Shown piece by piece: positions 1-49,706 of a stretch of DNA of 64,000 nt. The DNA comes from Escherichia phage EcNP1: sequence record NC_054910.1, one strand, 5' to 3'. The notes beneath the pieces were generated by a model, which saw only the letters and a program-made list of their open reading frames with translations, was not told the origin of the DNA and searched no databases. A program made the position numbers and the translations under genes. Each line of letters opens with the position of its first letter. Position 1 is the first letter of the stretch.

Positions 1-1070
1 AATTCATCGACTTCAGCTTCAACAATTTCATTACTATCAATAGCACCTAACTGATAAGCACGTTTAATAGCATCTCGGAATGGTTGATGCTTAAATAAAG
101 GACCCCAGAATGTAGTGCAATTGGTATCTTTTGCACGCCAAGATTTTTCTTCGCGAATCATCTCACCGGTTTCTTCGTCAAGAAATTCACGAGCATACCA
201 ACCATTTTTAGGTTTTACTACAAATCCTAATTCAAGAGCCATATCTAACAATCCAGAATAAGGATCGATACCACCGTCAAATTTAACATCAATAAAGAAT
301 TTACTTTTTTCTTTAACAGTACGAGATTTTTCTACATTTAGAACAAATTGATACCCCTGAAGATCAGAACCATCTTTAATCTGGCGCTTACCGATAATGA
401 ATACAGTATCAGCCGAATACATTACGCCTGTACCACCTGTCATCACGGTTTTACTAAACATTTCAATTGTTTCAATTGTATGGTTAACCGCAACACATGG
501 AATGTTTTTAATACTAAAATAAGGAGTAACAATACGGAATAATGACTTCAGTGATTTAGCACGAGTCATATCTGCCACAGATTTTTCATTCAAGGCATCT
601 TCCGTTTCTTTCTTAGAAGCCATATTACCGATTGAGTCGATGAATACAATAACTTTTTCACCGCGCTCAATAGCTTCAAGCTGATTCACCATATCAATTT
701 TCAGTTGTTCAACTGACTGGATTGGTGTATGAATTACTCGTTCCGGGTCAACTCCCATAGATCGCAAATAAGCTGGAGTGATACCAAATTCGCTATCATA
801 AAATAGACAAACTGCATCAGGATATTTGTTCAAATACGCCGCAACCATAGTCAAAGACATATTTGATTTAAAGTGTTTAGAAGGACCTGCAAAAATGGTT
901 AAACCAGACTGCATACCGCCATCAATCGCACCGGAAATAGCAATATTAAGCATTGGGATTTTTGTACGGATTACATCCTTTTCATTAAAGAATTTAGATG
1001 TAGTCAGTTCAGCAGTCATTTTAGAAGTGGAAGCTTTAATCAAACGGGATTTTAAATCTGCAATAGACAT
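1..1070 (-). CDS. uvsX: UvsX RecA-like recombinase, C-terminus beyond window start
   Basis: Manual reverse-complement translation from ATG at 1068-1070 gives MSIADLKSRLIKASTSKMTAELT..., matching T4 UvsX from memory; absent from ORF track because truncated. Confidence 0.88.
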   Translation of the reverse strand, partial: MSIADLKSRLIKASTSKMTAELTTSKFFNEKDVIRTKIPMLNIAISGAIDGGMQSGLTIFAGPSKHFKSNMSLTMVAAYLNKYPDAVCLFYDSEFGITPAYLRSMGVDPERVIHTPIQSVEQLKIDMVNQLEAIERGEKVIVFIDSIGNMASKKETEDALNEKSVADMTRAKSLKSLFRIVTPYFSIKNIPCVAVNHTIETIEMFSKTVMTGGTGVMYSADTVFIIGKRQIKDGSDLQGYQFVLNVEKSRTVKEKSKFFIDVKFDGGIDPYSGLLDMALELGFVVKPKNGWYAREFLDEETGEMIREEKSWRAKDTNCTTFWGPLFKHQPFRDAIKRAYQLGAIDSNEIVEAEVDE

Positions 1071-1146
1071 TCATTTTTCCATAGGCATCATTATATTTTC
1101 CTCACTGGTTAAAGATAGGGTAATTATAACACAATAAATTTAGGCA

Positions 1147-1989
1147 TTAATCAACTGCTATTGGATGAATAGCATTAAACTTATGAAACGCTTCTGATTT
1201 TTCTTTGCGCGAAACACACATGCGAAGAACCTTTAATGGCTCGTCTTCTTCACCTAATGATTTTCGTTTTTCAATATTAGAAGTTTTCCAACGAGCTTGC
1301 TCTGGAAACTCTCTATTGATTTGCTCAAGCGCTCTATTATGTTTAGAATTACTACGAATTGAGCTACATCCGCCTGGAGCTTGTGCTTTTCCAGATACAA
1401 CCAGATATTTGAACAAGGCCAAATGCGGATAACCTTGATTAATTAAATTGAGAAATGCATACATATCTTCGCATAAATCAATTTTTCCATACCCAATTTG
1501 TTCTGTTGTAAGTTTTCCGAGGTCATACCAGGTATTCGTGAATCCATATGAATTTTCACGATAATTACCCCAAGATGAAGTAATTTTAAAAATTGGTAGA
1601 CGAGCATGGCCATGATAATACCCGCAATCCATAGCATCTTCCACGTATTGAATCAATTCATAGAACTGTTCACGAGTTAATTGATTAATTTTATCTACGC
1701 AGCGACGATCATCTTTCTTTCGCATTGAACTCATACGAATAGTAGTATCATCATCAATCATCCAGATTCGTTGGCCTGCATACATATCAGTAATTGCTTT
1801 ACGAGTACCAGCAATTCCATTAACATCATCAGGAATAGTTATAATTTTAGCTCTAGACCCATAAGCATCATAATAAGCTTTTTCTTCGTGTTTACGTACT
1901 ACAATATGAGGTTCATAATCAGATGGAAACATATCAAGGGCAGAAACTGCCCCTACGCGTTGATAACTTGGAATTACGAATTGAATCAT
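1147..1989 (-). CDS. Glycosyltransferase with DxD-type motif (IDDDTT) at the T4 beta-gt position; not T4 beta-gt-like, possibly T2/T6-type HMC glucosyltransferase
   Basis: ORF track 282 aa from GTG at 1995; ATG at 1987-1989 overlaps gene 42 stop (ATGA); product assignment is inference. Confidence 0.8.
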   Translation of the reverse strand: MIQFVIPSYQRVGAVSALDMFPSDYEPHIVVRKHEEKAYYDAYGSRAKIITIPDDVNGIAGTRKAITDMYAGQRIWMIDDDTTIRMSSMRKKDDRRCVDKINQLTREQFYELIQYVEDAMDCGYYHGHARLPIFKITSSWGNYRENSYGFTNTWYDLGKLTTEQIGYGKIDLCEDMYAFLNLINQGYPHLALFKYLVVSGKAQAPGGCSSIRSNSKHNRALEQINREFPEQARWKTSNIEKRKSLGEEDEPLKVLRMCVSRKEKSEAFHKFNAIHPIAVD

Positions 1990-2726
1990 TTCCACTCACC
2001 GTTATAATCTTTTTTCGCAATATGAGTTTCGCCAGTTTTCCACCAATGGTCAACCAAATAAAAATGACGGGAATACACATGAAGGCTTCCGACATTCCAT
2101 ATAATGGAACCTGCTTTATACTGACGAGTTGAATCACCTGCATTCAAATCAGATACTAATTTATCTAGTACGTATTTTTGCCATGCATAATCATTACGGA
2201 ATCCGAAGACCACGTCATTTGAACGCATGCTTACTACTGCATTGACTTTCTTATCACGAATCAGATACTGTACTGTATTCGTACACATGAAATCTGACAT
2301 GCCATCTTTATTGTAGTCAAACTGCATGGATGGACGAGTATAAATCATGATACCACGTCGAGAATCAGGATTTTGACCAAGTTCAGCTAAACACATATCA
2401 TATTGGGCATAGTTATCTTCTGACCAGATGGCCCAACCATAATTCGAGTTAATTTCGCCTTTAGAAGATGCTACCTGCTGCCAAATCTTTGGTGTTTCAC
2501 CTGGAATATCTTTAACAAACAAACTTTGAGACTTATACCATTCAAGTTCACGCTGAATGTATTCATCATTAAGAGCGCCAAAAATAAAAGGTTCATCTGC
2601 TACAAATGATGCACCAATAATTTCAATAGTTTTAACACCGGTTTTATCAATTACGAAATCTTTTTCCTTTAATGCAAGACCCAAATCAAGACGGATTTCT
2701 TCAACTGTCATATAATCGTTAATCAT
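1986..2726 (-). CDS. 42: dCMP hydroxymethylase
   Basis: 246 aa, near-identical to T4 gp42 as recalled; ATG confirmed at 2724-2726. Confidence 0.95.
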   Translation of the reverse strand: MINDYMTVEEIRLDLGLALKEKDFVIDKTGVKTIEIIGASFVADEPFIFGALNDEYIQRELEWYKSQSLFVKDIPGETPKIWQQVASSKGEINSNYGWAIWSEDNYAQYDMCLAELGQNPDSRRGIMIYTRPSMQFDYNKDGMSDFMCTNTVQYLIRDKKVNAVVSMRSNDVVFGFRNDYAWQKYVLDKLVSDLNAGDSTRQYKAGSIIWNVGSLHVYSRHFYLVDHWWKTGETHIAKKDYNGEWK

Positions 2727-2879
2727 TTAAACCTCAATTGATGCATTCATATTTAACTTGTAACAGTAATAAACTCCACCCTATAATAAGCGTTGGAATC
2801 ATACAAGGAACTGTTACGCTATAGTATATACTTATTATAATCATCAAGATTAAAAGCAATACTGCTAAAATTTTGCTTT

Positions 2880-3131
2880 TCATTCCTTCTCTCTGATGAT
2901 AATTACTTGATTTTGCTGTACAGATTTTTTAGTTTCACCCGCAATTGACCAAATAAAGGTAATAAACCAACCAATAATTGACCAGTTAAACAGTAAAGAC
3001 GTGAAAAAGATTCCTACTGTCGATTTTGACCCACGCATCAAGGCGATGAACCACGGAAGCATGTATATAATAATAGCCAACACGCCTGAAACTAAAACCA
3101 TAAAAATTGAACCTGCTACTAAAGTTTCCAT
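2880..3131 (-). CDS. imm: Imm superinfection immunity membrane protein
   Basis: 83 aa hydrophobic protein, same size and position as T4 Imm; RBS GAGGAA upstream of ATG. Confidence 0.85.
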   Translation of the reverse strand: METLVAGSIFMVLVSGVLAIIIYMLPWFIALMRGSKSTVGIFFTSLLFNWSIIGWFITFIWSIAGETKKSVQQNQVIIIREKE

Positions 3132-3138
3132 GTTTTCC

Positions 3139-3519
3139 TCACTTAGTCAAATTTTTTACACATGAATTATAAGAATTTACTACATACTCCATCGGAGCAT
3201 TTTTACCAGTACGCCATTGGTAATTATTAGCCCAATTTGCCCAAAGTTCAGCACAGTAGTTTTCAATTTTTTCTTCACGCGTAATCACATCTGAATTACG
3301 ATATGCTTGAGCAGATTCATCTGGACGAATAGCTTCGTCAAAATTCGCCTGCATTTGTTCTACTGTCTGTTTTGGAGCCTCTTTATAACACTTGACGTTA
3401 GGATTATAAAATTTGCTTGAACAGTTTACAATTTTTCCTACATCAGACTGATTTACTACTGGTCCTTGAGCTACACAACCAGTAAGACCCAATGCAATAA
3501 CCAAAATAGCGATTTTCAT
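3139..3519 (-). CDS. Predicted lipoprotein (lipobox LTGC)
   Basis: Internal start MKIAILVIALGLTGC with RBS GGAGAA; ORF-track start at 3708 would overlap gene 43 and the promoter. Confidence 0.7.
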   Translation of the reverse strand: MKIAILVIALGLTGCVAQGPVVNQSDVGKIVNCSSKFYNPNVKCYKEAPKQTVEQMQANFDEAIRPDESAQAYRNSDVITREEKIENYCAELWANWANNYQWRTGKNAPMEYVVNSYNSCVKNLTK

Positions 3520-40772: not shown

Positions 40773-41348
40773 TTAATTACCACGGGCTGCATTAGCAACG
40801 GCGTAAGCATACTGAACATTAGCGTCTTTAAACGTACCTTTAGAGGTATCTAGTTCTGCCTTAAAGCCGCCTTTAGTCATAACCTCGGCGAATTCTTTAC
40901 GGAAAGCCATTGCATCAAGACCTTTCCATGCCGATTTGTGCTTGGCAAATTCAAGACCGGCGAAGTTGACAGCCTTAGCTAATTTATTATCAATAACCCA
41001 TTTACCAGCTTTAGGCGCAAACACTGGGCCTTTCTGTTTAGAGAATAATTTTAAATTCCAGCGACGAAGGTCACCGTCAGCTTTAACAAAAGCTGCGTCC
41101 AAGTTACTAGCAACAACATCTTGAATATGGCCAAATTTAAGCCCATCAACTTCAATATTTAGATCAGTACGCCAGCGAAGTCCTTCCCAAGCGAAAGCTT
41201 TAAAGTCGGAAGCTTTTGTAGCTAAGTATCGTTCAATAGGGGCTGTTTTAGGGTCAAAACCATTTCCTCGGTAAGTCCACTCATCTTTATTAATGCCTTT
41301 GGCCTTTTCCACAGAAGCTTCAGCGATAAATTCTTTATACGTTTTCAT
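40773..41348 (-). CDS. ipIII: Internal protein III (capsid targeting sequence MKTYKEFIAEA)
   Basis: 191 aa; CTS N-terminus; T4 IpIII-like. Confidence 0.88.
   Translation of the reverse strand: MKTYKEFIAEASVEKAKGINKDEWTYRGNGFDPKTAPIERYLATKASDFKAFAWEGLRWRTDLNIEVDGLKFGHIQDVVASNLDAAFVKADGDLRRWNLKLFSKQKGPVFAPKAGKWVIDNKLAKAVNFAGLEFAKHKSAWKGLDAMAFRKEFAEVMTKGGFKAELDTSKGTFKDANVQYAYAVANAARGN

Positions 41349-42148: not shown

Positions 42149-42149
<1 letters not shown>
42111..42149 (-). promoter_or_regulatory. T4-type early promoter
   Basis: Plus aatgtatagtatca...agtaaac (42141-42147). Confidence 0.65.
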
Positions 42150-42951
<802 letters not shown>

Positions 42952-45902: not shown

Positions 45903-46402
45903 TTTTTAATTTTACAAATTCGTTCAGCTTCTTCAACAGCGGCGGCGATAATGCTTTTAGCTATAGGAGTACTAATACTAGTAGCTTTTACACTTAACAC
46001 GATTTCTTTATCTTTACCAGGCCAACCCCACGATTTTTCACCGTGAGTGCCTTTAATTACAGCAGACACCTCAAGTGAGCATCCATTATCATATGTTTTT
46101 ACATTGACAACCCAAGGTTCACTTTTCTCAATCGGTTTCTCAATCGGTTTATCCCAGTAAATATTAAGAATACGTGGGACATCAAATTTGGCAGGACAAA
46201 TCTTAACTGTAAGACCTTCGCTTTCTAGCCAATTAATAAGAGGGCGTTCATACAGGCGACGATGTGGGCTTGGGATTCGACAAGCCTTATGTCCGTTGCT
46301 TGCGGCTTCACTAAGCTGTTCTAATACCTGCTTTTGCATTATTGATAAGATACCATCAAAAGATTTTTCGGAAGTTTCATTCAGTTCGGTATAAAGAGAC
46401 AT
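45872..46402 (-). CDS. Hypothetical protein
   Basis: ORF track 176 aa. Confidence 0.68.
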   Translation of the reverse strand: MSLYTELNETSEKSFDGILSIMQKQVLEQLSEAASNGHKACRIPSPHRRLYERPLINWLESEGLTVKICPAKFDVPRILNIYWDKPIEKPIEKSEPWVVNVKTYDNGCSLEVSAVIKGTHGEKSWGWPGKDKEIVLSVKATSISTPIAKSIIAAAVEEAERICKIKNSLHLLNSMI

Positions 46403-46423
46403 AACAGTTTCCTCAAATTATAG

Positions 46424-46460
46424 GCTCATAATATCTCAATCATGAGCCTATGTAAACTTA
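46424..46460 (-). promoter_or_regulatory. T4-type early promoter inside a 10-bp inverted repeat
   Basis: Plus ataggctcat aatatctcaatc atgagcctat then tgtaaac (46452-46458). Confidence 0.55.
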
Positions 46461-46721
46461 TTTCATATTATTAAAATATTCTTCTGCGATTTCGTCGTTA
46501 TCATGGTAAACTTTAGAAGACAGTTTAACATAACCTTCAGCAGTGAACATGTTAATCACAACATTTACAGTATACCACTGACCATCTTCATTACCCATTA
46601 CTGCGTAAGTTTCAAACATCGGATGATCAGGACCGATAACTTTAATATCATTCACTGTACGACCGAAATCTTCTGAAACGCATTTCATAAAGAAGTTGAA
46701 CAGTTCGCCGTAATTATCCAT
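46458..46721 (-). CDS. Hypothetical protein
   Basis: Internal start MDNYGELFNF with RBS GGAGAA. Confidence 0.55.
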   Translation of the reverse strand: MDNYGELFNFFMKCVSEDFGRTVNDIKVIGPDHPMFETYAVMGNEDGQWYTVNVVINMFTAEGYVKLSSKVYHDNDEIAEEYFNNMK

Positions 46722-46758
46722 TTCATTCTCCAAGTTGTTTTTCTGTATCAGTAGTTGA

Positions 46759-46797
46759 TAGTTGTATAGTACCATGGAAGAACAGGGATGTAAACAG
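46759..46797 (-). promoter_or_regulatory. T4-type early promoter
   Basis: Plus gttgatagttgtatagtacca...tgtaaacagttttgtgaaaaa (46789-46795). Confidence 0.7.
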
Positions 46798-46928
46798 TTT
46801 TGTGAAAAATTTTTTAAAAAGTTTTAGGGAATTCTAGGGAAGGGAGGGGCAATTAAAGGATAGGATAATATATTATAAAGGGTAGAAACTAAATGATGCT
46901 TAGAGAGGTCCAGAAAGGCCTAGATACC

Positions 46929-46953
46929 AAAAAGCCCTATCATTTAGATAGGG
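46929..46953 (-). terminator. Rho-independent terminator
   Basis: Minus RNA CCCUAUCUAAAUGAUAGGG followed by CUUUUU, after 46962 stop. Confidence 0.65.
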
Positions 46954-46961
46954 ATTTAAAA

Positions 46962-47525
46962 TTATTTATCTAGTTTAGTTATTATAGCTTCTGCGGCAGC
47001 TTTTAGCTTAGATGCAGTGTTAATACGATTTTTAATTTCAGTATACGCATCGCCAAGAACATCAAGGCTATCAGAATAAACACTTACACTATTGCGTTCG
47101 CTATTTGAAATAAAACCTTTAGTTTTACGATCAAAATCGGTGTACACGTCTTGAAGATCACGGGCAGCCTTCTTTGCATCATCCAATGCATCAAGAGCTT
47201 TATTCAAAGCATTAACATATTTTTTAGTGTCAAACATATTCTTAGAAATTTTAACAGGTGCACGTTCAGGAGTAGCTAAGGCAGATTTAGGAACATGAGC
47301 GCCAGATGCCAATTTCTTAGAAATTTTGAAAAACGCTTTATTGAATTTATTTTCTTGACTCATCGTAAAAGAACTATTATCGATGTTATACATTTCAATA
47401 GCTTTAGCTTTCCACTTAAGAAAATCGCCACGGTCTTTTGGGTCTAATTGAAAGAATACTTTAGTAAGATCTGCTTCAGACGGTAATTTTGCTGCTTCGG
47501 TCAAAAATTCGGCATAGGTTTTCAT
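46962..47525 (-). CDS. Internal-protein-like protein with CTS (MKTYAEFLTEA)
   Basis: 187 aa; RBS AAGGA; CTS-like N-terminus. Confidence 0.75.
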   Translation of the reverse strand: MKTYAEFLTEAAKLPSEADLTKVFFQLDPKDRGDFLKWKAKAIEMYNIDNSSFTMSQENKFNKAFFKISKKLASGAHVPKSALATPERAPVKISKNMFDTKKYVNALNKALDALDDAKKAARDLQDVYTDFDRKTKGFISNSERNSVSVYSDSLDVLGDAYTEIKNRINTASKLKAAAEAIITKLDK

Positions 47526-47615
47526 TTAAAATCCTTGAAATAATTTATCGGTTGGTTATTAATTATTTATTACTTTGTTATTATCCGCAACAGCATTCTC
47601 TATGTGATTCAAACT

Positions 47616-47642
47616 AAAAAGCCCCAACCTTTCGGTCGGGGC
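47616..47642 (-). terminator. Rho-independent terminator, GNRA tetraloop (repeat copy 1)
   Basis: Minus RNA GCCCCGACCGAAAGGUUGGGGC followed by UUUUU. Confidence 0.75.
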
Positions 47643-47650
47643 TAAGAATG

Positions 47651-48123
47651 TTATTTGATTTGTTTAGCAGACCAAATGCGGTCTTTAATAATTTTTTGGA
47701 TGTCTTCAACATACTCTAGGTCATGAGCATGTGGGTTGTCTTTGAAACTATAAGCACGGGCTAACTTTTGGCCTTCGGTTTTGATTACTAAAAGCTCTTT
47801 AAGGATAGCTTCATATTTAGCGATAATTCCTTTAACAATATTTTTTTCTTGTGCAGCTTTAGGATCTGCTTTAGGAGCAGGTTTACCGGAAGGTTTTTCG
47901 AAAGCCGCACCAGTAGCAACCAGGCTTTTCCAGGCGGTGGTAACATAGTTACCCACAAAGCCTTCAGCTCTCATATCGTCGTAGAACTTGTACCTGGATT
48001 CGTCAGAAGCATCTTTATAAGAATATTTACCAGCTTTAATAGCAGCAGTTGCTACAGCGCGAACATCTGAAGCGGATGCTTCATTTAACACCACTTCATT
48101 TAAAATTGAGCATATGATTTCAT
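47651..48123 (-). pseudogene. Internal-protein-like gene disrupted by frameshift
   Basis: ATG 48121-48123 with RBS AGGAAA encodes MKSYAQF then TAA; 147-codon ORF continues in another frame; ~14-nt tandem duplication at junction. Confidence 0.45.
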
Positions 48124-48162
48124 CTTATTTCCTGTTTTAATTCGTGATTTAATACACTACTA

Positions 48163-48170
48163 TATTTATA
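48163..48170 (-). promoter_or_regulatory. Late promoter TATAAATA
   Basis: Plus tatttata between terminator copy 2 and the disrupted Ip-like gene. Confidence 0.55.
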
Positions 48171-48172
48171 CT

Positions 48173-48199
48173 AAAAAGCCCCAACCTTTCGGTCGGGGC
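48173..48199 (-). terminator. Rho-independent terminator, GNRA tetraloop (repeat copy 2)
   Basis: Identical to the hairpin at 47616-47642; ends the tRNA/stable RNA transcription unit. Confidence 0.75.
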
Positions 48200-48251
48200 T
48201 AAGCCTTGCGGCAACCTTGTCGGGGTTCCACCTGCTAAGGCAAGTGTTTGT

Positions 48252-48343
48252 ACGAAACGCCGGGATTTGAACCCGGTTATTAAGCAGTTGACGCTACTCA
48301 ATATTTTTAAAAGGCCATATCTCGACCATATCCGAACGTTCCG
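48252..48343 (-). ncRNA. tRNA-like stable RNA candidate
   Basis: Perfect T-arm CCGGG-UUCAAAU-CCCGG and a 7-bp acceptor-like stem with one G-U pair; no clean anticodon arm; no ORF >=60 aa in 48203-48511. Confidence 0.3.
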
Positions 48344-48511
48344 TCAAAAACGCTACTCGGCTTACGGCAAAGATATTTCCTCGAATCGATAATTCGGTGC
48401 GCCGTTTCTGCTGTGATGTAAGAGGGCATCAACAAATCATAAAGATTTATTAACGCAATTCCTTACCCAGGGAACATCAGTCCGACGACTTACCGGTAGC
48501 GACCCGGTTTC

Positions 48512-48862
48512 TTAATATTCTTTTAAAGCATCAATTTGTTCACGGCGTTTACGCCATAAATCAATTGCTTCATACGCAGATTCAGCATTTCGAATTGGAC
48601 GGCATTTATATAAAGACTTGTGATTTTGATATTGTGTAGATAACGGAATTTTATCTAAAAGGTCTTTACGTTCAAAATATTCGTAACCATCTAAACCAAA
48701 TGAACGATTTTTGAGAAATTGCCAATGACCATATTCGTTTTCGACATAAACATAATCTGCATGCTGATAAAGTAAATTAATTACACGTTCAGAAATAACA
48801 GTGTCATTATGATTAAAATAGAATGTTAAATCATGAACTACTAAATAAACATTACCTTTCAT
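48512..48862 (-). CDS. Hypothetical protein
   Basis: ORF track 116 aa; RBS GAGGAAAAT. Confidence 0.65.
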   Translation of the reverse strand: MKGNVYLVVHDLTFYFNHNDTVISERVINLLYQHADYVYVENEYGHWQFLKNRSFGLDGYEYFERKDLLDKIPLSTQYQNHKSLYKCRPIRNAESAYEAIDLWRKRREQIDALKEY

Positions 48863-48878
48863 ATTTTCCTCACTTAAT

Positions 48879-48954
48879 TGGTCGAGGCAGTAGGGATCGA
48901 ACCTACGACCTAGGACTTAGAAGGTCCTTGCTCTTCCTTCTGAGCTATGCCTCG
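48879..48954 (-). tRNA. tRNA-Arg (anticodon UCU)
   Basis: Manual fold: acceptor CGAGGCA/UGCCUCG, T-arm GGTTCGATCC, anticodon loop CUUCUAA, encoded CCA. Confidence 0.85.
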
Positions 48955-48958
48955 GATT

Positions 48959-49033
48959 TGGCGGACGTGATAGGATTCGAACCTATAACCAATCGCTTAA
49001 CAGGCGATCGCTCTGCCATTGAGCTACACATCC
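48959..49033 (-). tRNA. tRNA-Asn (anticodon GUU)
   Basis: Manual fold: acceptor GGAUGUG/CACGUCC with G-U, anticodon stem AUCGC/GCGAU, loop CUGUUAA. Confidence 0.8.
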
Positions 49034-49037
49034 AAAT

Positions 49038-49124
49038 TGGTGGGGAGTGATGGAGTCGAACCACCCGAGTCGCAATGACAATGGATTTACAGTCCACACC
49101 GCTACCTCTACGGAATAACTCCCC
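49038..49124 (-). tRNA. tRNA-Tyr (anticodon GUA), long variable arm
   Basis: Manual fold: 87 nt, acceptor GGGGAGU/ACUCCCC, anticodon loop CUGUAAA. Confidence 0.8.
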
Positions 49125-49133
49125 AAATTAATT

Positions 49134-49208
49134 TGGTGGCCCTGGGTGGAATTGAACCACCATCTGGCGATTATGAGTCGCTTGCTTGAACCTTCCAGCT
49201 ACAGGGCC
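49134..49208 (-). tRNA. tRNA with anticodon CAU (Ile2-type or Met)
   Basis: Manual fold: acceptor GGCCCUG/CAGGGCC, perfect T-arm, anticodon loop CUCAUAA; occupies the T4 tRNA-Ile position. Confidence 0.75.
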
Positions 49209-49209
49209 T

Positions 49210-49285
49210 TGGTGCTGATTGACGGAATCGAACCGCCGACCTTCTCATTACAAGTGAGTTGCTCTACCTACTGAGCTAAATCAGC
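49210..49285 (-). tRNA. tRNA-Thr (anticodon UGU)
   Basis: Manual fold: acceptor GCUGAUU/AAUCAGC, anticodon loop CUUGUAA. Confidence 0.85.
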
Positions 49286-49290
49286 AAAAC

Positions 49291-49380
49291 TGGCGGAGGC
49301 GATAGGATTCGAACCTATGAGTCGCCGGAGCGACTGCCGGTTTTCAAGACCGGTGCATTAAACCACTCTGCCACGCCTCC
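49291..49380 (-). tRNA. tRNA-Ser (anticodon UGA), long variable arm
   Basis: Manual fold: 90 nt, acceptor GGAGGCG/CGCCUCC, anticodon stem CCGGU/ACCGG, loop CUUGAAA. Confidence 0.85.
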
Positions 49381-49382
49381 AG

Positions 49383-49456
49383 TCTCCATACAAGGATTTG
49401 AACCTTGGACCTCCTGATCCCAAATCAGGCGCTCTACCAAACTGAGCTACACGGAG
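49383..49456 (-). tRNA. tRNA-Pro (anticodon UGG)
   Basis: Manual fold: acceptor with two G-U pairs, anticodon loop UUUGGGA, CCA not encoded. Confidence 0.8.
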
Positions 49457-49466
49457 TAAATTAAAT

Positions 49467-49540
<74 letters not shown>

Positions 49541-49545
49541 AAATT

Positions 49546-49632
49546 TGGTGCGAGAAGTGGGACTCGAACCCACAAGGAAATCATTCCGCAGCATTTTAAG
49601 TGCTGTGCCTTTACCAATTTGACCATTCTCGC
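49546..49632 (-). tRNA. tRNA-Leu (anticodon UAA), long variable arm
   Basis: Manual fold: 87 nt, acceptor GCGAGAA/UUCUCGC, anticodon loop CUUAAAA. Confidence 0.85.
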
Positions 49633-49633
49633 G

Positions 49634-49706
49634 CTGGGAATAAAGGACTCGAACCTTTGCATCCTGGAATCAAAATCCAGTGCCTTACCAACTTGGCTAA
49701 TTCCCA
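49634..49706 (-). tRNA. tRNA-Gln (anticodon UUG)
   Basis: Manual fold: acceptor UGGGAAU/AUUCCCA, anticodon loop UUUUGAU. Confidence 0.85.

What the first reader, a model, noticed from the sequence alone, without database searches (positions are those of the whole stretch)
47614..48203. Identical 33-nt terminator-containing direct repeats bracketing one gene
actaaaaagccccaacctttcggtcggggctaag occurs twice, at 47614-47646 and 48171-48203, 557 bp apart, flanking the disrupted Ip-like gene. On the minus strand each folds as a GNRA-tetraloop hairpin plus U-run. Exact repeats flanking a single gene in a hypervariable region suggest a recombination-mediated cassette.
Basis: seen in the sequence. Interest (0 to 1): 0.4.

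Follow-up and report, generated by a model that had tools for sequence, protein, structure and literature searches.

The report
Duplicated terminator bounding a swappable phage gene
Two identical copies of a transcription terminator bracket one small late gene, probably for an injected "internal protein", in a T4-like phage; related phages have gained or lost this gene exactly at the terminator, which is a known style of phage gene shuffling.

Summary
The repeat is 34 nt, not 33. It lies at 47613-47646 and 48170-48203, 557 bp apart, with none expected by chance.

The window is a Tequatrovirus close to phages Nami and EcNP1. On the minus strand each copy is a 10-bp stem with a GAAA loop and U5 (-20.3 kcal/mol). 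Copy T1 is the orthologue of the terminator after T4 rnaC. Copy T2 starts 4 nt after the stop codon of a 157-aa gene ("ipA").

ipA has a perfect T4 late promoter (TATAAATA), a ribosome-binding site and a capsid-targeting-like N-terminus (MKSYAQFLNE). In this window a 1-nt deletion in a T run disrupts it. A second such gene (ipB, 187 aa) follows, with a different terminator, T3.

About 740 T4-like genomes show four states of this site: none (T4, T6), ipA only (RB32), ipB only (RB69, which equals the window minus 557 bp) and both. In all 17 loci read base by base, the breakpoint falls at the terminator's ...GGGGCTTTTT.

The cassette idea is therefore supported. It is not new in kind. The RB32 GenBank record already notes a "34 bp imperfect direct repeat" around this gene, and PeSL and Ip-locus shuffling are published. 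The mildly new point is that this looks like a third, unannotated Ip locus.

The parts
48251..48515 (-). Homologues of the T4 small stable RNAs rnaD (about 48397-48515) and rnaC (about 48251-48390). This is the upstream transcription unit that terminator copy T1 closes.
   Evidence: 95.7% identity to T4 L003 6826-7169, where rnaC and rnaD are annotated. No Rfam family matches.
48170..48203 (-). Terminator copy T1: a 34-nt repeat unit made of a 10-bp stem, a GAAA loop and a U5 run. It is orthologous to the terminator downstream of T4 rnaC.
48163..48170 (-). Perfect T4 late-promoter consensus TATAAATA, overlapping the last base of T1 and lying 39 nt upstream of the ipA ATG.
   Evidence: It is conserved in every ipA-bearing Tequatrovirus locus inspected.
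47651..48123 (-). ipA, an Ip-like late gene that is disrupted in this window. The ATG is at 48123, preceded by AGGAAATAAG. A premature TAA lies at 48102-48100, caused by a 1-nt deletion in the T run 48102-48105. The remaining GTG ORF (48094-47651, 147 aa) lacks the targeting peptide.
   Evidence: It matches phrog_2280 and no Pfam family.
47613..47646 (-). Terminator copy T2, identical to T1. It starts 4 nt after the ipA stop codon.
46962..47525 (-). ipB, a second Ip-like gene (187 aa, MKTYAEFLTE..., pI 9.35). The nearest late-promoter-like motif is AATAAATA at 47564-47571 (7 of 8).
46929..46953 (-). Terminator T3 (CCCTATC-TAAAT-GATAGGG, then CTTTTT). The stem differs from T1/T2, but its 3' end GGGCTTTTT and the following GGTATCTAGGCC match what follows the single rnaC terminator in T4.

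Best explanation
Each copy of the 34-mer is an intrinsic (Rho-independent) terminator on the minus strand. T1 ends the tRNA-rnaD-rnaC unit, as its orthologue does in T4. T2 ends a one-gene late transcription unit made of a TATAAATA late promoter, a ribosome-binding site and ipA. ipA, and the next gene ipB, most likely encode T-even 'internal proteins': small basic proteins led into the prohead by a 10-residue N-terminal targeting peptide, cleaved after Glu10 and injected with the DNA. By analogy with T4 Ip1-3 they would act as anti-restriction factors.

Because T2 duplicates T1, the ipA unit is bracketed by 34 bp of perfect homology. Recombination or replication slippage between the two copies would remove exactly 557 bp and leave one intact terminator. 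The reverse reaction, or an unequal crossover in the terminator between co-infecting phages, would add the unit without disturbing neighbouring transcription. This makes the rnaC-e.8 gap a plug-in site for terminator-bounded Ip cassettes.

Shown here: the repeat, the hairpins, the promoter and targeting motifs, and the four-state polymorphism with breakpoints at the terminator. Inferred: termination in vivo, packaging and function of the proteins, and the recombination mechanism itself.
For: Repeat and hairpins.

Orthology of T1 with the T4 rnaC terminator: T4 reads rnaC-T-GGTATCTAAGCC... directly into the e.8 upstream region.

Junctions read base by base in 17 loci:
- none: T4, T6, KIT06, phi25-307
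- ipA only: RB32, JK1, RPN226
- ipB only: RB69, LF73P3, G4498, with the junction ...CTTTTT|AGTTTGAATCAC predicted for a T1/T2 deletion
- both: window, Nami, ZJUN4, Sso113, G50

Population counts in 50,697 phage records:
- the ipA-T-ipB junction is in 126 records
- the ipB protein is in 163 records, which leaves about 37 with ipB only; one search also gives 163 for the rnaC-T-ipB query, which includes the records with both genes
- the ipA protein is in 510 records, 466 at full length
- the ipA-T-e.8 junction is in 278 records
- the empty site is in roughly 80-110 records

The four states are intermingled on neighbour-joining trees of both flanks.

Hairpin pairing is kept among variants: 93.6% of cells are paired, with two double-sided changes.

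Targeting-peptide residues Y4, F7, L8 and E10 are present in both proteins, and these are the residues shown to matter for IPIII (PMC9026906). Both proteins are basic, pI 9.2-9.5.

The analogous mechanism has been demonstrated for PeSL elements, including excised mini-circles (PMC2839356, PMC4122927). T4 is known to delete between short homologies (PMC9391042).
Against: No recombination event was observed; it is inferred from the end states. T1 and T2 have diverged independently in some lineages (Sso113, G50, RB32, JK1), so exchange between copies is not frequent enough to homogenise them. The ipB unit is bounded by only about 9 nt of shared sequence (GGGCTTTTT), which is too short for classical homologous recombination. 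The stem sequence is generic: the exact 27-mer also occurs in an unrelated phage contig and in five unrelated bacterial genomes. The sequence alone therefore does not mark a dedicated mobile element. Every database record calls ipA and ipB 'hypothetical protein', and there is no virion proteomics here.
Confidence: 0.75

Rival explanations
1. Recombinase-independent template switching at hairpins. On this view the indels arise when replication stalls at the G+C-rich hairpin and T run and the nascent strand realigns on another hairpin end. The GGGC...GCCC hairpin and T run would matter, not the 34 bp of homology.
For: The ipB unit shares only GGGCTTTTT with the preceding terminator, yet it shows the same clean presence/absence breakpoint. 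Arbiol et al. report that about half of 13 T4 deletions mapped by Mosig et al. [quoted passage not shown] T4 deletes between 2-10 bp homologies (PMC9391042).
Against: For ipA the homology is the full 34 bp and includes non-hairpin bases (CTT...AGT). Arbiol et al. (PMC2839356) state that T4 recombination needs only small patches of homology (under 50 bp). The two mechanisms predict the same end products, so nothing here separates them.
Confidence: 0.2
2. Passive scar. On this view the duplicated terminator is only a leftover of one ancient insertion and is kept because each transcription unit needs a terminator. Present diversity would come from ordinary crossovers in the long flanking homologies between co-infecting phages, not at the repeat.
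For: T1 and T2 drift apart in several lineages. ipA also sits at this site in Mosigvirus, at 70-78% identity and with a more diverged downstream hairpin, so the arrangement is old. Flank mosaicism is pervasive.
Against: The four states cannot all be derived from one another by flank crossovers alone. Making 'ipB only' or 'ipA only' from 'both' and 'none', or 'both' from the two single states, needs at least one exchange inside the terminator. The observed junctions are exactly there.
Confidence: 0.12
3. Dedicated mobility system. On this view the hairpin is an att-like site recognised by a phage protein (a site-specific recombinase or a homing endonuclease such as SegB) that moves the cassette.
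For: The PeSL authors speculated about such a helper for GGGG...CCCC stems (PMC2839356). segB lies nearby in T4, T6 and RB32.
Against: The 557-bp unit holds only ipA. This window has no segB. The repeats are direct terminators, with no inverted ends or target-site duplications. The same hairpin occurs as an ordinary terminator in unrelated genomes.
Confidence: 0.04
4. Chance similarity or an assembly artefact.
For: None was found.
Against: Zero matches are expected by chance. The same pair is present in about 400 independently sequenced genomes: 1073 places in 661 records.
Confidence: 0.01

Closest known systems
The 34-bp imperfect direct repeat annotated around RB32ORF133c (GenBank DQ904452, phage RB32)
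   Same: It is the same gene (ipA orthologue, 84.7% amino-acid identity), the same site downstream of rnaC and the same repeat. The depositors' note reads 'flanked by 34 bp imperfect direct repeat'.
   Different: In RB32 the copies differ at two positions (GACC versus AGCC), and ipB is absent, so the downstream copy abuts the e.8 upstream region. The annotation does not call the repeats terminators, does not call the gene Ip-like, and does not describe the polymorphism.
PeSL (promoter-early stem-loop) cassettes of T4-type phages (Arbiol et al. 2010, PMC2839356; Comeau et al. 2014, PMC4122927)
   Same: These are short conserved regulatory elements with a G+C-rich terminator stem-loop that flank single non-essential ORFs in hyperplastic regions. 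Indels between close relatives end in the elements, and transcriptional insulation makes insertion harmless. Excision as mini-circles has been shown for PeSLs.
   Different: The repeated unit here is the terminator alone. The adjoining promoter is a T4 late promoter (TATAAATA), not a sigma-70-like early promoter, and it is not part of the repeat. Only two copies exist per genome, both at one locus. Mini-circles were not tested.
IP-associated promoter/stem-loop elements at the two variable internal-protein loci of T-even phages (Repoila et al. 1994, as summarised in PMC2839356)
   Same: The cargo is a targeting-peptide-bearing internal-protein-type gene. The locus is highly polymorphic among T-even phages, and regulatory elements are proposed as the exchange points.
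   Different: Those elements are described as based on T4 early promoters with weak, A+T-rich stem-loops lacking polyG/polyC stems. They sit at the ipI and ipII/ipIII loci. Here the stem is strong and G+C-rich (-20 kcal/mol), and the site, between rnaC and e.8, is a third location. I could not read Repoila 1994 itself.
T4 deletions between short direct repeats or GGGC/GCCC motifs (Mosig et al. 1998, cited in PMC2839356; short-homology deletions in PMC9391042)
   Same: In both cases non-essential genes are removed precisely between short repeats, and the breakpoint motif GGGC paired with GCCC is present in T1, T2 and T3.
   Different: Those were laboratory deletions at other loci. Here the events are inferred from natural variants.

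Membership tests
Intrinsic (Rho-independent) terminator | G+C-rich stem-loop on the transcribed strand | tested here: met
   10-bp stem with 7 G-C pairs and a GAAA loop, -20.3 kcal/mol; no shuffle folds as well
Intrinsic (Rho-independent) terminator | A U tract directly after the stem | tested here: met
   UUUUU follows the stem in both copies
Intrinsic (Rho-independent) terminator | Position at the 3' end of a transcription unit | tested here: met
   T2 starts 4 nt after the ipA TAA. T1 lies about 48 nt after the rnaC 3' end and is orthologous to the T4 rnaC terminator
Intrinsic (Rho-independent) terminator | Termination activity in vivo or in vitro | not testable with these tools
   Only other depositors' computational 'terminator' annotations are available (G50, fPS-90)
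PeSL regulatory cassette | Stem-loop terminator within the repeated element | tested here: met
PeSL regulatory cassette | Strong sigma-70-like early promoter as part of the repeated element | tested here: not met
   The repeat ends 3 nt after the U run. No sigma-70-like hit follows T1, and only a weak 9/12 match (47608-47580) follows T2. T1 is instead followed by the late promoter TATAAATA
PeSL regulatory cassette | Flanks non-essential ORFs in a hyperplastic region, with indel endpoints in the element | tested here: met
   Four allelic states with breakpoints at ...GGGGCTTTTT
PeSL regulatory cassette | Formation of excised mini-circles | not testable with these tools
   This needs inverse PCR or read-level data
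T-even internal protein (Ip) gene | N-terminal capsid-targeting sequence of about 10 residues with Tyr4, Phe7, Ile/Leu8 and Glu10 (gp21 cleavage site) | tested here: met
   ipA reads MKSYAQFLNE and ipB reads MKTYAEFLTE, against T4 IpII/IpIII MKTYQEFIAE. The critical residues are taken from PMC9026906
T-even internal protein (Ip) gene | Small basic protein expressed late | tested here: met
   pI 9.2 for ipA and 9.35 for ipB. ipA has a perfect TATAAATA; ipB has only AATAAATA (7 of 8), so late expression of ipB is uncertain
T-even internal protein (Ip) gene | Encoded at one of the two described Ip loci (next to ipI, or next to ipII/ipIII) | tested here: not met
   It lies between rnaC and e.8. 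The canonical loci hold other targeting-peptide ORFs: 40773-41348 and 42149-42430 in this window, and IpIII-VI in phage PST
T-even internal protein (Ip) gene | Sequence homology to a named Ip beyond the targeting peptide | tested here: not met
   ipA versus T4 IpIII and PST IpIV gave no significant match. ipB versus the same two matched only over the targeting peptide. T4 IpI and IpII were compared only by their N-termini. Named Ips are also unrelated to one another, so this is weak evidence against membership
T-even internal protein (Ip) gene | Packaged in the head, cleaved by gp21 and injected | not testable with these tools
   This needs virion proteomics
Self-mobile element (integron cassette, transposon/MITE, homing-endonuclease gene) | Own recombinase or endonuclease, or inverted terminal repeats with a target-site duplication | tested here: not met
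   The 557-bp unit contains only ipA. The repeats are direct. ipA has no Pfam match

The most novel reading that the evidence does not exclude
The gap between rnaC and e.8 may be a third, so far unrecognised internal-protein locus of T-even phages. Papers as recent as 2025 still speak of 'the two Ip loci'. On this reading the locus holds two new families of injected proteins (ipA in about 500 sequenced phages, ipB in about 160). These are likely anti-restriction (GmrSD-type) inhibitors. They would be traded between phages as late-promoter/terminator-bounded cassettes, with the rnaC terminator as the docking sequence, possibly through excised 557-bp circles.
Probability: 0.3. Interest if true: 0.5.

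Novelty: new member of a known kind. Interest (0 to 1): 0.3.

Why it matters
Internal proteins of T-even phages have recently been shown to be specific inhibitors of GmrSD-type restriction systems. The known repertoire is described as sitting in two loci. This site adds two widespread, unannotated candidates (ipA and ipB) carrying the same targeting peptide. It also gives a clean natural example, with all four presence/absence combinations, of how a terminator can double as the seam along which accessory genes are added or removed without disturbing neighbouring transcription. That is useful for annotating phage genomes and for choosing anti-defence candidates. It also suggests an insulated insertion site for engineered T4-like phages. 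It does not reveal a new principle.

Tried and rejected
1. I looked for a step in identity at the terminator between RB69 (Mosigvirus) and the window, as a sign of a crossover there. The ~95% tract runs from e.8 through ipB and the terminator into rnaC/rnaD and drops only in the next ORF, so there is no such signal.

2. I tested whether ipA is the IpIV of phage PST, which has the same length (157 aa). There is no similarity.

3. I tested whether ipA and ipB are paralogues. Both match phrog_2280. BLASTP finds only the 10-residue leader. hhalign on shallow alignments gives 25% probability. This is unresolved and is treated as not shown.

4. Rfam has no family for the rnaC/rnaD region or for the repeat.

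5. I asked whether the hairpin marks a dedicated element. The exact 27-mer also occurs in an unrelated phage contig and in five unrelated bacterial genomes. It is therefore a generic strong terminator design.

6. The raw '>=80% coverage' junction counts of 357 and 163 are inflated because the tool joins pieces less than 604 bp apart. I corrected them using the pieces column and the protein counts.

7. Repoila 1994, Miller 2003 and the PST supplementary tables are not held. I could not check whether this site was ever listed as an Ip locus.

Full report
**1. The observation**

- The quoted string has 34 letters. It occurs exactly twice in the window, at 47613-47646 and 48170-48203, 557 bp apart. 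No other copy appears with up to three mismatches, and shuffles give none. The bases just outside the repeat differ on both sides.
- On the minus strand, which is the coding strand of every gene here, each copy reads CUU-AGCCCCGACC-GAAA-GGUUGGGGCU-UUUU-AGU. That is a 10-bp stem, a GNRA tetraloop and a U5 run, at -20.3 kcal/mol.
- These two are the best terminator-like sites in 44-52 kb.

**2. Context**

- The window is a Tequatrovirus. It is 99.8-99.9% identical over this locus to phage vB_EcoM_Nami, of the species Tequatrovirus ecnp1.
- Its ipB protein is identical to a protein of phage EcNP1. EcNP1 also has a truncated 146-aa ORF annotated in the ipA cluster.
- Read on the minus strand, the locus runs as follows:
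  - ten tRNA genes (49706-48879)
  - a 116-aa ORF (48862-48512)
  - homologues of the T4 stable RNAs rnaD and rnaC (about 48515-48251)
  - terminator T1
  - a perfect T4 late promoter TATAAATA (48170-48163)
  - a ribosome-binding site and gene 'ipA' (48123-47651)
  - terminator T2, starting 4 nt after the stop codon
  - gene 'ipB' (47525-46962)
  - a third, different terminator T3 (46953-46929)
  - the e.8 promoter region and e.8

**3. The bracketed gene**

- In relatives ipA is a 157-aa ORF beginning MKSYAQFLNE. ipB begins MKTYAEFLTE.
- T4 IpII and IpIII begin MKTYQEFIAE. Of this 10-residue capsid-targeting sequence, residues 4 and 7 matter for targeting and residues 8 and 10 for cleavage (PMC9026906). 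Both proteins have Tyr4, Phe7, Leu8 and Glu10.
- Both proteins are small and basic, with pI 9.2-9.5.
- Beyond the leader, neither protein resembles the other, T4 IpIII or PST IpIV. That is typical of internal proteins.
- Both fall in PHROG 2280, of unknown function, and have no Pfam match.
- Every public record inspected calls them 'hypothetical protein'.
- In this window ipA is broken by loss of one T from a T5 run, which gives MKSYAQF-stop. Nami, ZJUN4, G50, Sso113 and RB32 have the gene intact. The 'disrupted Ip-like gene' is therefore real in this sequence. It is either a single homopolymer mutation or a sequencing error.

**4. Comparison with relatives**

T4 has a single copy of the same terminator after rnaC, followed directly by GGTATCTAAGCC... 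and the e.8 promoter. I read the junctions base by base in 17 loci and found four states:

| State | Phages | Arrangement |
|---|---|---|
| none | T4, T6, KIT06, phi25-307; also PST, by gene layout only | rnaC-T-e.8 |
| ipA only | RB32, JK1, RPN226 | rnaC-T-ipA-T-e.8 |
| ipB only | RB69, LF73P3, G4498 | rnaC-T-ipB-T3-e.8 |
| both | window, Nami, ZJUN4, Sso113, G50 | rnaC-T-ipA-T-ipB-T3-e.8 |

- In every case the breakpoint is at ...GGGGCTTTTT.
- The ipB-only genomes are exactly the window minus the 557-bp unit.
- T3 shares only GGGCTTTTT with T1 and T2. It is followed by the same GGTATCTAGG that follows the T4 terminator. The ipB unit is therefore also inserted at the 3' edge of a terminator.

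**5. Frequencies in 50,697 phage records**

- The 34-mer is in 661 records at 1073 places, and no sampled record holds more than two.
- The ipA-T-ipB junction is in 126 records.
- The ipB protein is in 163 records, all at 95-99% identity apart from one at 84.5%. That leaves about 37 records with ipB only.
- The ipA protein is in 510 records, 466 of them at full length. This includes a 70%-identity group in Mosigvirus.
- The ipA-T-e.8 junction is in 278 records.
- The empty site is in roughly 80-110 records. This figure corrects for the tool's joining of nearby pieces and agrees with the spread sample.
- On neighbour-joining trees of either flank the four states are intermingled. For example, KIT06 (none) sits next to G50 and ZJUN4 (both), and RPN226 (ipA only) sits next to the window. 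These trees are short and have no bootstrap support, so this is only suggestive of repeated events or frequent recombination.

**6. Function of the hairpin**

- Variants among relatives keep the pairing, with 93.6% of cells paired.
- One compensatory C-G to G-C change occurs in the fDHCT2 downstream copy. There are also several wobble-preserving changes, such as GA versus AG opposite UU.
- Mosigvirus copies carry a 2x2 mismatch.
- The support from covariation is modest. The terminator reading rests mainly on the canonical anatomy and position, and on orthology with the T4 terminator.

**7. Mechanism**

- The best-supported reading is that T1 and T2 are working terminators that also serve as the seams of a one-gene late transcription unit.
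- With 34 bp of perfect direct homology 557 bp apart, recombination or slippage would delete the unit and leave one terminator. An unequal crossover in the terminator between co-infecting phages, or integration of an excised circle, would add it.
- The four states cannot be interconverted by flank crossovers alone. At least one exchange inside the terminator is needed.
- What I cannot tell is whether the events use homologous recombination or hairpin-promoted template switching. The latter is more plausible for ipB, with only 9 nt shared, and it recalls the GGGC/GCCC deletion endpoints of Mosig et al. 1998 cited in PMC2839356. I also cannot tell how often these events occur.
- The copies are not homogenised. 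T1 and T2 differ in Sso113, G50, RB32 and JK1.
- A dedicated recombinase is unlikely. The unit encodes only ipA, and the same hairpin turns up as an ordinary terminator in unrelated genomes.

**8. Relation to what is known**

- The RB32 GenBank record already annotates the orthologous gene as 'flanked by 34 bp imperfect direct repeat'.
- The general idea is published for PeSLs: small terminator/promoter elements flank accessory ORFs in hyperplastic regions of T4-type phages and mediate insertion, deletion and mini-circle formation (PMC2839356, PMC4122927). According to those authors, something similar was foreshadowed for the Ip loci by Repoila et al. 1994.
- This case fails one defining PeSL feature. 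No sigma-70-like early promoter lies in the repeated unit, and the adjoining promoter is a late one.
- The case also differs from the described IP-associated elements. Its stem is strong and G+C-rich, and it lies at a third location.
- Papers as recent as 2025 speak of 'the two Ip loci' (PMC12373910). The PeSL authors suggested that Ip genes are absent elsewhere in T-even genomes. The mildly new point is therefore that the rnaC-e.8 gap behaves as a third Ip locus holding two unannotated families. I could not read Repoila 1994 or Comeau 2007 to exclude prior description.

**9. Verdict**

- The novelty is low: a new member of a known kind, whose raw repeat is already on record.
- The interest is modest. 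It rests mainly on the candidate injected anti-defence proteins and on the unusually complete four-state natural series.

Noticed in passing
window 48100-48123 (- strand): ipA is inactivated by loss of one T from a T5 run (48102-48105), which gives MKSYAQF-stop. The nearest relative, Nami, is intact. EcNP1, whose ipB protein is identical to the window's, has a 146-aa truncated ORF annotated in the ipA cluster. This may be a real mutation or a homopolymer sequencing error.
   Followed up: yes
window 48512-48862 (- strand): A 116-aa ORF (phrog_3355, unknown function; homologous to RB69ORF150c) sits between tRNA-Arg and rnaD. In T4, rnaD abuts tRNA-Arg, and the ORF is also missing in RB32, JK1 and T6. 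This is another presence/absence unit in the same region.
   Followed up: partly
window 48879-49706 (- strand): The window has ten tRNA genes (Gln, Leu, Gly, Pro, Ser, Thr, Met, Tyr, Asn, Arg) and no segB. T4 has eight tRNAs plus segB, and some relatives carry an extra tRNA-His with about 190 bp between Arg and Asn.
   Followed up: no
window 40773-41348 and 42149-42430 (- strand): Two more ORFs carry capsid-targeting-type leaders at or near the canonical Ip locus. One is an IpIII homologue (MKTYKEFIAEAS..., 191 aa). The other is a 93-aa ORF starting [10 protein letters not shown].
   Followed up: partly
L010 (RB32), L011 (JK1), L018 (RPN226), L008 (IMG/VR contig): the terminator copies: The stem dinucleotide variant GA/AG sits in the downstream copy in RB32. 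It sits in the upstream copy in JK1, RPN226 and an IMG/VR contig whose flanks are otherwise RB32-like. This swap would be expected if crossovers fall at different points within the 34-mer, but independent mutation is not excluded.
   Followed up: partly
alignment A2 (ipA from 8 phages): ipA is a mosaic. The N-terminal half comes in two allelic types within Tequatrovirus. The C-terminal ~78 residues, and the DNA up to T2, are almost invariant even between Tequatrovirus and Mosigvirus.
   Followed up: no
L009 (RB69) 1037-3192 versus window 46316-49028: RB69, a Mosigvirus, is about 95% identical to this Tequatrovirus from e.8 through ipB to rnaD, but only 62-83% identical in the flanks. This suggests transfer of the whole segment between genera. 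In RB69, ipB is annotated as two ORFs (149c and 148c), which indicates a frameshift.
   Followed up: partly
L007 1-90 (IMG/VR contig), L024-L028 (bacterial genomes): The exact hairpin GCCCCGACCGAAAGGTTGGGGC plus a T run also occurs outside T4-like phages. It appears twice in tandem, 44 nt apart, after an ORF in an unrelated phage contig that carries a terminase gene. It also appears once each in five unrelated bacterial assemblies. It looks like a recurrent strong terminator design.
   Followed up: partly
literature: PMC12685909, phage BW-1 (OR125554, same locus layout, 94.6% identical): A laboratory evolution study reports a convergent SNP inside rnaD, 'between two hypothetical genes'. In BW-1 these two genes correspond to ipA and the 116-aa ORF.
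   Followed up: no
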